Below are positions 13,627 through 31,400 of a DNA stretch of 64,000 bases, in pieces; the stretch's first letter is position 1; the number at the start of each line of letters is the position of its first letter. The position numbers were made by a program, and so were the translations under genes. The notes beneath the pieces are model-generated. The model was given only the letters and a program-made list of their open reading frames with translations, made no database searches and was not told the origin of the DNA. The stretch comes from the human T2T-CHM13v2.0 reference genome, Homo sapiens. The stretch lies in the NCBI RefSeq assembly GCF_009914755.1, contig NC_060930.1, one strand, 5' to 3'.

Positions 13627-16600
13627 CTGATCTTAGTTATTTAAGATCAGAGCAGAACTGAAGGAGATAGAGACACAAAAAAACCCTTCAAAAAATCTGT
13701 GAATCCAGGAGCTGGTGTTTTGAAAAGATCAACAAAATTGATAGACCGCTAGCAAGACTAATGAAGAAAAGAGAGAAGAATCAAATAGACACAATAAAAA
13801 ATGATAAAGGGGATATCACCACCAATCCCACAGAAATACAAACTGCCATCAGAGAATACTATAAACACCTCTACGCAAATAAACTAGAAAATCTAGAAGA
13901 AACGGACAAATTCCTCGACACATACACCCTCCCAAGACCAAACCAGGAAGAAGTTGAATCTCTGAATAGACCAATAGCAGGCTCTGAAATTGAGGCAATA
14001 ATTAATAGCTTACCAACCAAAACAAGTCGAGGACCAGATGCATTCACAGCCGAATTCTACCAGAGGTACAAGGAGGAGCTGGTACCATTCCTTCTGAAAC
14101 TATTCCAATCAATAGAAAAACAGGGAATCCTCCCTAACTCATTTTATGAGGCCAGCATCATCCTGCTACCAAAACCTGGCAGAGACAAAACAAAAAAAGA
14201 GAATTTTAGACCAATATCCCTGATGAACATCGATGCAGAAATCCTCAGTATAATACTGGCAAACTGAATCCAGCAACACATCAAAAAACTTATCCACCAA
14301 GATCAAGTGGGCTTCATCCCTGGGATGCAAGGCTGGTTCAACATACACAAATCAATAAATGTAATCCAGCATATAAACAGAACCAAAGACAAAAACCACG
14401 TGGTTATCTCAATAGCTGCAGAAAAGGCCTTTGACAAAATTCAACAGCCCTTCATGCTAAAAACTCTCAATAAATTAGGTATTGATGGGACGTATCTCAA
14501 AATAATAAGAGCTATTTATGACAGACCCACAGCCAATATCATACTGAATGGGCAAAAACTGGAAGCATGCCCTTTGAAAACTGGCACAAGACAGGGATGC
14601 CCTCTGTCACCACTCCTATTCAACATAGTATTGGAAGTTCTGGCCAGGGCAATCAGGCAGGAGAAGGAAATAAAGGGTATTCATTTAGGAAAAGAGGAAA
14701 TCAAATTGTCCCTGTTTGCAGATGACATGATTGTATATGTAGACAACCCCATCGTCTCAGCCCAAAATCTCCTTAAGCTGATAAGCAACTTCAGCAAAGT
14801 CTCAGGATACAAAATCAATGTGCAAAAATCACAAGCATTCTTATACACCAATAACAGACAAACAGAGAGCCAAATCATGAGTGAACTCCCATTCACAATT
14901 GCTTCAAAGAGAATAAAATACCTAGGAATCCAACTTACAAGGGATGTGAAGGACCTCTTCAAGGAGGACTACAAACCACTGCTTAACGGAATTAAAGAGG
15001 ATACAAACAAATGGAAGAACATTCCATGCTCATGAGTAGGAAGAATCAATATCGTGAAAATGGCCATACTGCCCAAAGTAATTTATAGATTCAATGCCAT
15101 CCCCATCAAGCTACCAATGACTTTCTTCACAGAATTGGAAAAAACTACTTTAAAGTTCATATGGAACCAAAAAAGAGCCCGCATCGCCAAGTCAATCCTA
15201 AGCCAAAAGAACAAAGCTGGAGGCATCATGCTACCTGACTTCAAACTACGCTACAAGGCTACAGTAACCAAAACAGCATGGTACCTATACCAAAACAGAG
15301 ATATAGACCAATGGAACAGAACAGAGCCGTCAGAAATAATGCCACACATCTACAACTATGTGATCTTTGACAAACCTGACAAAAACAAGAAATGGGGAAA
15401 GGATTCCCTATTTAATAAATGGTGCTGGGAAAACTGGCTAGCCATATGTAGAAAGCTGAAACTGGATCCCTTCATTACACCTTATACAAAAATTAATTCA
15501 AGATGGGTTAAAGACTTAAATGTTAGACCTAAAACCATAAAAACCCTAGAAGAAAACCTAGGCAATACCATTCAGGACATAGGCATGGGCAAGGACTTCA
15601 TGTCAAAAACACCAAAAACAATGGCAACAAAAGCCAAAATTGACAAATGGGATCTAATTAAACTAAAGAGCTTCTGCCCAGCAAAAGAAACTACCATCAG
15701 AGTGAACAGGCAACCTACAGAATGGGAGGAAATTTTTGCAATCTACTCATCTGACAAAGGGCTAATATCCAGAATCTACAAAGAACTCAAACAAATTTAC
15801 AAGAAAAAAACAAACAGCCGCATCAACAAGTGGGCAAAGGATATGAACAGACAGTTCTCAAAAGGAGACATGTATGCAGCCAACAGACACATGAAAAACT
15901 GCTCATCATCACTGGCCATCAGAGAAATGCAAATCAAAACCACAGTGAGATAGCATCTCACACCAGTTAGAATGGCAATCATTAAAAAGTCAGGAAACAA
16001 CAGGTGCTGGAGAGGATGTGGAGAAATAGAAACACTTTTACACTGTTGGTGGGACTGTAAACTAGTTCAACCATTGTGGAAGACAGTGTGGCGATTCCTC
16101 AGGGATCTAGAACTAGAAATACCATTTGACCCAGCCATCCCATTACTGGGTATATACCCAAAGGATTATAAATCATTCTGCTACAAAGACACATGCACAC
16201 GTATGTTTATTGCGGCACTATTCACAATAGCAAAGACTTAGAACCAACCCAAATGTCCCTCAGTGATAGACTGGATTAAGAAAATGTGGCACATATACAC
16301 CATGGAATACTATGCAGCCATAAAAAAGGATGAGTTCATGTCCTTTGTAGGGACATGGATGAAGCTGGAAACCATCATTCTCAGCAAACTATCGCAAGGA
16401 CAAAAAACCAAAGACCGCATGTTCTCACTCATAGGTGGGAATTGAACAATGAGAACACTTGGACACAGGAAGGGGAACATCACACACCGGGGCCTGTTGT
16501 AGGGTGTGGGTAGAGGGGAGCGATAGCATTAGGAGATAAACCTAATGTAAATGACGAGTTAATGGGTGCAGCCCACGAACATGGCACATGTATACATATG

Positions 16601-16661
16601 TAACAAACCTGCACGTTGTGCACATGTACCCTAAAACTATAAGTATAAAAAAAAAAAAAAA
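13627..16661 (+). mobile_element. 5'-truncated LINE-1 (L1PA4/L1PA5-like), 3.0 kb, disrupted ORF2 (RT and C-terminal region), 3'UTR and poly(A)
   Basis: ORF2 peptides including [11 protein letters not shown]; stops at 14265, 15033, 15951 and 16239; poly(A); 14-bp TSD AAGATACCATTTTT at 13613-13626 and 16662-16675. Confidence 0.96.
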
Positions 16662-28400: not shown

Positions 28401-31400
28401 ATTCCCACCTATGAGTGAGAACATGCGGTGTTTGGTTTTTTGTCCTTGCGATAGTTTACTGAGAATGATGATTTCTGATTTCATCCATGTCCCTACAAAG
28501 GACATGAACTCATCCTTTTTTATGGCTGCATAGTATTCCATGGTGTATATGTGCCACATTTTCTTAATCCAGTCTATCATTGTTGGACATTTGGGTAGGT
28601 TCCAAGTCTTTGCTGTTGTGAATAGTGCCGCAATAAACATACGTGTGCATGTGTCTTTGTAGCAGCATGATTTATAATCCTTTGGGTATATACCCAGTAA
28701 TGGGATGGCTGGGTCAAATGGTATTTCTAGTTCTAGATCCCTGAGGAATCGCCACACTGACTTCCACAATGGTTGAACTAGTTTACAGTCCCACCAACAA
28801 TGTAAAAGTGTTCCTATTTCTCCACATCCTCTCCAGCACCTGTTGTTTCCTGACTTTTTAATGATTGCCATTCTAACTGGTGTGAGATGCTATCTCACTG
28901 TGGTTTTGATTTGCATTTCTCTGATGGCCAGTGATGGTGAGCATTTGTTCATGTGTTTTTTGGCTGCATAAATGTCTTCTTTTGAGAAATGTCTGTTCAT
29001 GTCCTTCGCCCACTTGTTGATGAGGCTGTTTGTTTTTTTCTTGTAAATTTGTTTGAGTTCATTGTAGATTCTGGATATTAGCCCTTTGTCAGATGAATAG
29101 GTTGCAAAAATTTTCTCCCATTCTGTAGGTTGCCTGTTCACTCTGATGGTAGTTTCTTTTGCTGTGCAGAAGCTCTTTAGTTTAATCAGATCCCATTTGT
29201 CAATTTTGGCTTTTGTTGCCATTGCTTTTGGTGTTGTAGACATGAAGTCCTTGCCCATGCCTATGTCCTGAATGGTAATGCCTAGGTTTTCTTCTAGAGT
29301 TTTTATGGTTTTAGGTCTAACGTTTAAGTCTTTAATCCGTCTTGAATTAATTTTTGTATAAGGTGTAAGGAAGGGATCCAGTTTCAGCTTTCTACATATG
29401 GCTAGCCAGTTTTCCCAGCACCATTTATTAAATAGGGAATCCTTTCCCCGTTGCTTGTTTTTTCAGGTTTGTCAAAGATCAGATGGTTGTAGATATGCGG
29501 CATTATTTCTGAGGGCTCTGTTCTGTTCCATTGATCTGTATCTCTGTTTTGGTACCAGTACCATGCTGTTTTGGTTACTGTAGCCTTGTAGTATAGTTTG
29601 AAGTCAGGTAGCGTGATGCCTCCAGCTTTGTTCTTTTGGCTTAGGATTGACTTGGCAATGCGGGCTCTTTTTTGGTTCCATATGAACTTTAAAGTAGTTT
29701 TTTCCAATTCTGTGAAGAAAGTCATTGGTAGCTTGATGGGGATGGCATTGAATCTATAAATTACTTTGGGCAGTATGGCCATTTTCACGATATTGATTCT
29801 TCCTACCCATGAGCATGGAATGTTCTTCCATTTGTTTGTATCCTCTTTTATTTCATTGAGCAGTGGTTTGTAGTTCTCCTTGAAGAGGTCCTTTATGTCC
29901 CTTGTAAGTTGGATTCCTAGGTATTTTATTCTCTTTGAAGCAATTGTGAATGGGAGTTCACTCATGATTTGGCTCTCTGTTTGTCTGTTATTGGTGTATA
30001 AGAATGCTCGTGATTTTTGTACATTGATTTTGTATCCTGAGACTTTGCTGAAGTTGCTTATCAGCTTAAGGAGATTTTGGGCTGAGACAATGGGGTTTTC
30101 TAGATATACAATCATGTCATCTGCAAACAGGGACAATTTGACTTCCTCTTTTCCTAATTGAATACCCTTTATTTCATAGATATAAGTATACAGTTAAGCT
30201 CAGCCCAGTCTCGTTGTACTCTTCTAGAGAAGCAACTAGAATATACAAAGAGAATGGTTCTCAACGTAGAGCGAGAAAAGAACATGATCCTAGAACAACA
30301 GGTGAGCATATTTTCTATAAGGAATGATAATATAATTTTGTATGTTTTTGAAGAATATTTTAATTTCACGGGAAAATTCAAAGGCAAAGGTGGCATAATG
30401 TTAGAATGAGGTCTAACTTACGTGTAATTGGAGTTTCAAAAGGAAAGGAAAGGAAAATGGGGAAAAGCAATATTTGAAGAGATAATGGCTAAGAATGTTA
30501 CAAAATGTATTAAAAAGTAAAATTACTAGCCTGGCCAACATGGTGAAACCCCATCTCTACTAAAAATACAAAAATTAGCCGGGCTTGGTGGCAGGCATCT
30601 GTAATCTCAGCTACTCAGGAGGCTGAGGCAGGAGAATCGCTTGAACCCGGGAGGCAGAGGTTGCAGTGAGCTGAGATTGTGCCGTTGCACTGCAGCCTGG
30701 ACGACAGAGCAAGACTCTGTCTCAAAAAAAAAAAAAAAAGTAAAATCTTAAAAGCATCCAGAAAAAAAAAATTACACTCAAAGAGACAACAATTAAAGTG
30801 ATAGCTGACTTCTCAACTCAAAGTACTGAACCCAGAAGACAAGGAACTGATAGAGTTAAGGTGTTAAAAGAAAATAAGTACTGGTCTAGAATTCTATGCC
30901 CGGGGGAAGTATCCTTCAGAAATAAAGATATTTTAAGACTAAAAAGACTGAGATATATTTGTTACTAGTAGGTCCACTCTAAAGAGAACACTAAAGGACA
31001 TCAGACAGAAGGAAAATGACCTTTGGTAGAAGGTCAGAGATGCAGGAAGGAATGAAGAGCAATGAAGATGGTAAATATGTGGATAAATCTAAATTAATAT
31101 TATATAAGGCAACAATAATAATGCTTTGTATGGTTTAAATATAAAGAATTAAAATTCATCAGAACAATGGCTTATATGTTAGGAAGAAGTAAAGTAGTTT
31201 AAAGTGTTCTAATATCCTTGCATTTTCTTGGCAGAAGGGTAAAAGTACCAATCAATACTGGATATTGATGGGTCAAATACATAACAGATTTTTAAGGAAC
31301 TAGAGAATTTAATTCTAAAATTTATATGGAAAAGCAAAGGTCCAAGAACAGCCAAAGTATTCTGAAGAAGAATAAGATGAAAGTCTTTCTCTAGTTGATA

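What the first reader, a model, noticed from the sequence alone, without database searches (positions are those of the whole stretch)
15070..29770. Two inverted L1s of different subfamilies share private mutations, including the same nonsense codon (probable gene conversion)
Seen: both copies read ...EMQIKTTVR* (cacaGtgagataGcat at 15941-15956 and on the minus strand at 28887-28902), whereas the L1 ORF2 consensus as I recall it is KTTMRYHL. They also share aaacaGcc (~15812/~29025), gctaCaaagac (~16180/~28655) and cccaaAgtaa (~15072/~29762). Between these patches they differ at subfamily-type sites (gaagAcag/gaagTcag, gaagctggaaacc/gaaatcagaaatc, tttacattagg/tttagcattagg). Inference: elements from different source lineages should not share an inactivating stop, so patchy non-allelic gene conversion between the inverted copies is the simplest explanation. 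A crossover between them would invert coding exons 1-2 and disrupt the gene.
Basis: partly seen in the sequence, partly recalled or inferred. Interest (0 to 1): 0.75.

Follow-up and report, generated by a model that had tools for sequence, protein, structure and literature searches.

The report
Neighbouring LINE-1 copies swapped DNA patches
Two broken, oppositely oriented LINE-1 copies inside the human CEP57L1 gene share several rare mutations, including a stop codon, most likely because one copied short patches from the other, a known process that also appears likely at other neighbouring LINE-1 pairs, so this case is ordinary.

Summary
Observation confirmed. Copy A (13613-16675, +) and copy B (28179-30175, -) are separate L1 insertions of an older and a younger lineage, 95.0% identical over 1,998 columns. 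The shared alleles are rare, not private: GTG+TAG 21 of 16,084 genome matches, TAG 1.0%, 15817G 1.6%, 16184C 0.75%. No other listed copy joins 16184C with TAG or 15817G. Eight of B's 28 departures from its lineage match A; the maximum in 301 unlinked pairs is 4. Patchy gene conversion, mostly A to B, is the best reading (0.85). It is not special to this locus: six other close stop-carrying pairs are independent insertions with excess shared rare alleles. Tract clustering alone is not significant, and one unlinked copy shares four of B's uncommon alleles. No inversion is listed here in the catalogues I searched. New example of a known process.

The parts
13613..16675 (+). Copy A: 5'-truncated L1 (ORF2 3' part, 3' UTR, poly-A), older lineage (L1PA4-like by recalled 3' UTR diagnostics), sense to CEP57L1, in the intron before the first coding exon; inferred main donor
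   Evidence: 14-nt target-site duplication at 13613 and 16662; old-lineage allele at 23 of 25 diagnostic sites, the other two CpG-type; groups with older copies in the tree
28179..30175 (-). Copy B: 5'-truncated L1, younger lineage (L1PA3-like by recalled diagnostics), antisense to CEP57L1; inferred main recipient
   Evidence: aligns to A 14667-16663 at 95.0%; young allele at 19 of 25 diagnostic sites; groups with younger copies; no clear long target-site duplication, only a 7-nt shared word
15907..16029 (+). 123-nt identical run holding the shared GTG (15945) and TAG (15953); partner 28814-28936
   Evidence: joint variant 21 of 16,084; bounded by lineage sites 15886 and 16083
15783..15841 (+). 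Patch with shared 15817G and 15827C (B 29026, 29016); at most 59 nt
   Evidence: 15817G 152 of 9,679; 15827C 117 of 4,871 in young context; bounds
16084..16259 (+). Patch with shared 16184C and old-lineage 16166T in B (B 28659, 28677); at most 176 nt; best evidence for direction A to B
   Evidence: 16184C 113 of 15,119; 16166 is C in 15 of 15 young copies and T in 18 of 19 old copies
15036..15184 (+). Longest identical run (149 nt) with shared 15077A; further A-type alleles in B at 15720, 16328 and 16514 (weaker evidence)
   Evidence: 16328G is 428 of 6,112 (7%) in young context
16676..28178 (.). 11.5-kb spacer holding coding exons 25281-25443 and 26820-26999 and an alternative exon 20492-20746; a crossover between A and B would invert it (hypothetical)
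   Evidence: hub gene table; no inversion start or end at 110.31-110.33 Mb in the T2T table searched
30135..30179 (+). Acceptor region of CEP57L1 coding exon 30180-30301: all but the last few bases are antisense L1 (copy B), which supplies the pyrimidine tract and two candidate branch motifs
   Evidence: alignment ends at 30175, AG at 30178-30179; pyrimidine fraction 0.70 and yUnAy motifs at -39 and -23; use of these motifs is predicted, not shown

Best explanation
Two independently inserted, dead L1 copies 11.5 kb apart share rare alleles in short patches, most likely because non-crossover homologous repair (non-allelic gene conversion) copied stretches of the older copy A into the younger copy B. 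Shown: separate insertions, different lineages, excess sharing, and patches bounded by sites where B keeps its own lineage allele (upper bounds 59-485 nt). Inferred: a germline break or nick in B was repaired by strand invasion into A, either in several events or as one heteroduplex with patchy mismatch repair. Inferred: the direction is mainly A to B (about 0.7), since B carries old-lineage alleles and A no non-CpG young ones. The exchange is probably old and neutral; the stop is only a marker.
For: B matches A at 8 of 28 departures from its lineage, plus the two stop-region sites; unlinked pairs give at most 4 (301 pairs), other young copies against A at most 2 (16 copies). 4 of A's 37 rare alleles are in B. 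No other listed copy combines 16184C with TAG or 15817G. The process is visible elsewhere: 6 of 6 other close stop-carrying pairs have different 3' flanks and 93-97% identity, and share more rare alleles than 146 non-neighbour carrier pairs (0-6 per pair, mean 2.0 vs 0.16; Mann-Whitney p=1.3e-4). 16 pairs lie within 50 kb among 415 listed carriers of four rare alleles, about 4.3 expected. Conversion between L1PA3 copies has been seen in reads (PMC5829575, passages).
Against: Run-length tests on the A/B alignment alone are not significant (longest run 149 nt, P=0.09; low-difference windows P=0.08 and 0.13). A/B's 3 doubleton alleles are equalled by 2 other pairs among 404. B also matches an unlinked old copy (L061) at 6 sites. 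An unlinked young copy (L092) shares 15827C, 15945G, 16184C and 16328G with B, and 16328G is 7% in young context, so some sharing may be inherited. A chr5 copy joins 15817G and TAG. At 15820 and 15854 the copies carry different rare bases. No ape or population data.
Confidence: 0.85

Rival explanations
1. B descends from a small chimeric or transitional source lineage that already carried several old-type alleles; the remaining rare matches with A are recurrent mutation, noticed because a whole-genome scan offers many pairs.
For: L092 shares four uncommon alleles with B; L094 and L095 share two (chosen on that basis). 16328G is 7% and 15827C 2.4% in young context. Recombinant L1s exist: 35 of 2,267 full-length loci (PMC13192797, passages).
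Against: L092, L094 and L095 share none of the B alleles that A lacks (14-15 covered each); L093 shares 1 of 7. A source element could hardly pass on an ORF2 stop (cis preference, recalled). 15817G, TAG, 16184C and 16514A are all also in the neighbour A.
Confidence: 0.09
2. The spacer inverted and re-inverted by crossovers between A and B, leaving conversion tracts at each breakpoint.
For: The geometry allows it; L1-mediated inversions with flanking conversion are described (PMC5829575; PMC9675761).
Against: Crossovers should leave reciprocal blocks, but A holds no non-CpG young allele. The inverted state would flip two coding exons. No inversion is listed here. 95% identity is below the 97.1% median of L1-mediated inversions.
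Confidence: 0.04
3. Assembly or polishing mixed reads of the two copies.
For: None found; reads were not available.
Against: Identical runs are at most 149 nt between unique flanks, with 100 differences in 1,998 columns; the same pattern occurs at several other loci.
Confidence: 0.02

Closest known systems
Non-allelic gene conversion between neighbouring Alu elements (Aleshin and Zhi 2010, known only as summarised in PMC6598467 and PMC8230782, passages)
   Same: Neighbouring copies share non-diagnostic mutations; partial conversion gives mosaics of two subfamilies; old-to-young direction occurs (12 cases in PMC8230782).
   Different: Here L1, not Alu; Alu range given as about 10 kb, while the L1 pairs here lie 7.6-44 kb apart.
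Conversion between L1PA3 copies seen in long reads (Frith and Khan, PMC5829575, passages)
   Same: Same element class and age; replacement of a tract by a nearby similar tract.
   Different: That case is a rearrangement seen in one cell line; this one is inferred from shared alleles in one assembly and is patchy.
LINE-1-mediated inversions (PMC9675761, passages and supplement search; PMC2603318, passages)
   Same: Inverted L1PA pair as the substrate.
   Different: No crossover is evident here; identity 95% against a median of 97.1% for their 8 L1 inversions.
Fixed transposable elements inside intronic under-representation zones (PMC3088655, passages)
   Same: An antisense LINE within 50 bp of an exon.
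   Different: Elements under 20 bp from exons are biased to donor sites; B sits at an acceptor. CEP57L1 and C6orf182 do not occur in that paper's main text.

Membership tests
Non-allelic gene conversion between repeats | The two copies are separate insertions, not a duplication | tested here: met
   Different lengths, junctions and lineages; A has its own target-site duplication
Non-allelic gene conversion between repeats | Excess of shared derived alleles over unlinked pairs | tested here: met
   8 of 28 against a maximum of 4 in 301 pairs
Non-allelic gene conversion between repeats | Shared alleles are not a sub-lineage signature | tested here: met
   Met for TAG, GTG+TAG and 15817G; doubtful for 15827C and 16328G
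Non-allelic gene conversion between repeats | Statistically clustered identical tracts (GENECONV-like) | tested here: inconclusive
   P=0.08-0.13 in permutations
Non-allelic gene conversion between repeats | Non-reciprocal transfer | tested here: met
   B has old alleles at 15720 and 16166; A has no non-CpG young allele at 25 diagnostic sites
Non-allelic gene conversion between repeats | Unconverted state in an outgroup or another haplotype | not testable with these tools
   No ape or other human assembly is held
GC-biased gene conversion | Excess of AT-to-GC among transferred alleles | tested here: inconclusive
   8:2 among shared, 55:50 among private alleles in 7 pairs; Fisher p=0.087
L1-mediated inversion polymorphism | Inverted spacer or reciprocal chimeric L1s in some haplotype | tested here: not met
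   No reciprocal blocks in this assembly; none in the supplements searched; other genomes not examined
L1PA4 (copy A) and L1PA3 (copy B) | Best match to the Dfam subfamily model | not testable with these tools
   No Dfam; names rest on recalled 3' UTR diagnostics. Older versus younger lineage is shown by tree and site table
Transposon-derived 3' splice signals | Element sequence covers the pyrimidine tract and branch zone of an annotated acceptor | tested here: met
   L1 alignment reaches 30175, AG at 30178-30179
Transposon-derived 3' splice signals | Branch point mapped inside the element; effect on exon use | not testable with these tools
   No lariat or RNA data

The most novel reading that the evidence does not exclude
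Young L1 neighbours up to about 40 kb apart, in either orientation, trade short patches so often that up to a tenth of their mutations are shared, blurring L1 subfamily trees and ages; and at CEP57L1 this acts on an L1 that has taken over the branch point and pyrimidine tract of a coding exon and can pair with its partner as a 2-kb RNA duplex ending at that acceptor, so conversion between the two copies (which differ at both candidate branch motifs, 30142 and 30158) could retune splicing or circularisation of the two enclosed exons.
Probability: 0.25. Interest if true: 0.6.

Novelty: new member of a known kind. Interest (0 to 1): 0.33.

Why it matters
The single locus matters little: neutral exchange between dead elements. 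Two things go further. First, rare L1 alleles give a cheap genome-wide measure of local L1-L1 conversion, which my searches found quantified for Alu but not for L1 (subscription papers were not searched). If frequent, it biases L1 dating and creates false sub-lineages. Second, the exchange shows that these two copies have paired in the germline, so a rare inversion knocking out CEP57L1 (centriole engagement, PMC7836272, abstract start in listing) is plausible, and copy B abuts a coding exon's acceptor, an uncommon place for a fixed L1.

Tried and rejected
Sub-lineage of stop carriers: rejected, the 19 others are heterogeneous. Tandem or segmental duplication as the cause of close carrier pairs: rejected for the 6 stop-carrying pairs checked; of the 10 other close pairs, 9 were not fetched and one (L092/L094) was compared only by alleles. 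Run-length and low-difference window tests: not significant. GC bias: not significant. Doubleton count alone: top 3 of 404 pairs, not unique. Siblings of B: three candidate copies share none of B's non-A alleles and one shares one. Link to the CEP57L1 deletion in cruciate-ligament agenesis (PMC4642759, passages): it maps to about window 25324-44019 (offset), is exome-defined, and a simple crossover between inverted copies gives no deletion; rejected. Literature: no paper with CEP57L1+LINE-1 or CEP57L1+inversion; the HPRC2 preprint passages say nothing on this. Supplement searches: PMC9675761 no hit, one file unreadable, hg38 prefixes rest on a recalled offset; PMC10150506 no start or end beginning 11031 or 11032; PMC2603318 held supplements contain no 'chr6' at all, so uninformative. 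Aleshin and Zhi 2010 and Harpak 2017 could not be read. Sample handling: segmental-duplicate copies (L046, L047, L054, L055, and L053 in later scripts), the window's own loci and copies under about 90% identity were dropped before allele counts.
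Full report
Observation. The window (T2T chr6, CEP57L1 introns) holds two 5'-truncated L1s in tail-to-tail orientation: A at 13613-16675 (+) with a 14-nt target-site duplication, and B at 28179-30175 (-). They align over 1,998 columns with 100 differences. Both translate ...KTTVR*, but A has further in-frame stops and B a frameshift, so the stop is a marker, not a cause of death.

Lineages. 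In a tree of 34 copies B groups with younger and A with older copies. At 25 sites separating the groups, A has the old allele at 23 (two CpG-type exceptions) and B the young allele at 19. The names L1PA4 and L1PA3 are recalled from 3' UTR diagnostics; no Dfam was available.

How rare are the shared alleles? Exact-pattern counts in the genome: neither change 14,670; GTG only 1,249; TAG only 144; both 21, about 12 expected by independence. 15817G is 152 of 9,679 and 16184C 113 of 15,119. The other 19 double carriers are 73-95% identical to A and lack the full set. Among the first 100 listed carriers of each allele (115 for TAG), only A and B join 16184C with TAG or with 15817G; one chr5 copy joins 15817G with TAG.

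Test against unlinked pairs. B departs from 16 young copies at 28 non-CpG sites; 8 match A (15077, 15720, 15817, 15827, 16166, 16184, 16328, 16514), with the two stop-region columns left out because part of the sample was chosen on them. In 301 unlinked young-old pairs the count is 0-4; other young copies match A at 0-2; B matches other old copies at 2-6. B has old-lineage alleles where its group is uniform (16166: C in 15 of 15 young, T in 18 of 19 old), while A has no non-CpG young allele, which points to non-reciprocal transfer from A to B. Sites where B keeps its own allele split the signal into seven intervals of at most 59-485 nt: several events, or one heteroduplex repaired in patches. 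The stretch 15907-16363 still has 10 differences in 457 columns, so the exchange is probably millions of years old (inference).

Results against. Permutation tests of run length are not significant (P=0.08-0.13). 15827C (2.4%) and 16328G (7%) are not very rare in young context, and an unlinked copy, L092, shares four uncommon alleles with B. It and two similar copies share none of the alleles that B has and A lacks, and a fourth shares one, so I found no sibling lineage, but these two sites are weak evidence.

Is it special? No. Carrier lists show close pairs: 16 within 50 kb among 415 listed carriers of four alleles, focal pair excluded, against about 4.3 expected with a clustering factor taken from 100 chr1 copies. 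This is rough: lists are truncated, and three pairs belong to one chr11 cluster. All six other stop-carrying pairs were compared by sequence: different 3' flanks, 93-97% identity, three of them from different lineages, two inverted and four direct, 7.6-44 kb apart. They share 0, 2, 6, 1, 3 and 0 further rare alleles against a mean of 0.16 in 146 non-neighbour carrier pairs (p=1.3e-4) and have longer identical runs round the stop (p=0.0015). Across seven pairs 14 of 147 rare alleles are shared (9.5%; biased upward because pairs were chosen on a shared allele). A GC bias is suggested but not significant (p=0.087).

Mechanism. Most likely non-crossover homologous repair between nearby copies. Shown: independent insertions, excess and patchy sharing, asymmetry. 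Inferred: break, strand invasion, direction, age.

B's 5' junction (alignment end 30175) lies just upstream of the AG (30178-30179) of coding exon 30180-30301. The pyrimidine tract (fraction 0.70, like the gene's other acceptors at 0.44-0.78) and two candidate branch motifs at -39 and -23 are antisense L1. A T-rich stretch with a branch-like motif lies beyond B's tail near 28140-28180 and is probably the displaced original signal (inference from an empty-site model). Other transcripts use an acceptor 48 nt downstream (hub table). A and B differ at the last base of both motifs. Elements this close to acceptors are under-represented (PMC3088655, passages). Any splicing effect is untested.

Comparison with print. 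Conversion among neighbouring Alus, including mosaics and old-to-young transfer, is described (PMC6598467 and PMC8230782, passages); conversion between L1PA3 copies has been seen in reads (PMC5829575, passages); recombinant full-length L1s are catalogued (PMC13192797, passages). Searches for CEP57L1 with LINE-1 or inversion gave no paper, and searches listed no distance-resolved study of L1-L1 conversion; subscription papers and unread supplements may hold one.

Verdict. Real, most likely gene conversion (0.85), a new example of a known and apparently common process. Interest 0.33, raised a little by the genome-wide handle and the splice-site position.

Noticed in passing
window 30135-30179 (+): Copy B ends just upstream of the acceptor AG of CEP57L1 coding exon 30180-30301 and supplies its pyrimidine tract and candidate branch motifs; the likely original signals lie 2 kb upstream near 28140-28180.
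   Followed up: partly
window 13627-16661 and 28179-30175: In pre-mRNA the two arms could form a 2-kb, 95% duplex enclosing coding exons 25281-25443 and 26820-26999 and reaching the next acceptor; a candidate for back-splicing or editing.
   Followed up: no
G000:C11:14.72-14.98 Mb: Five young L1 copies within 260 kb carry the uncommon 15827C allele (117 genome-wide), suggesting local spread of one allele.
   Followed up: no
L086/L087 (G000:C1:210.08 Mb): Direct pair of different lineages 13 kb apart sharing 6-7 rare alleles besides the stop over about 550 nt: a clearer conversion than the focal pair.
   Followed up: partly
L084/L085 (G000:C2:161.17-161.22 Mb) and L092/L094 (G000:C1:101.48-101.52 Mb): Inverted pairs 44 and 40 kb apart: a 354-nt identical run in the first, six shared uncommon alleles in the second.
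   Followed up: partly
window 13627-13644: The 5' end of copy A begins with a short segment that is the reverse complement of adjoining L1 sequence (small 5' inversion, twin-priming-like).
   Followed up: partly
window 15820/29023 and 15854/28989: A and B carry different rare bases at the same two positions, close to the shared 15817G; unexplained.
   Followed up: no
window 61896-62234 (-) and 22274-22542 (+): Two further short L1 3' fragments (91% and 80% to A); too short to cover most shared sites.
   Followed up: partly
window about 25324-44019: The published CEP57L1 deletion (PMC4642759) maps here, starting at the first coding exon; its true left breakpoint is unmapped and could lie anywhere in the upstream intron.
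   Followed up: partly
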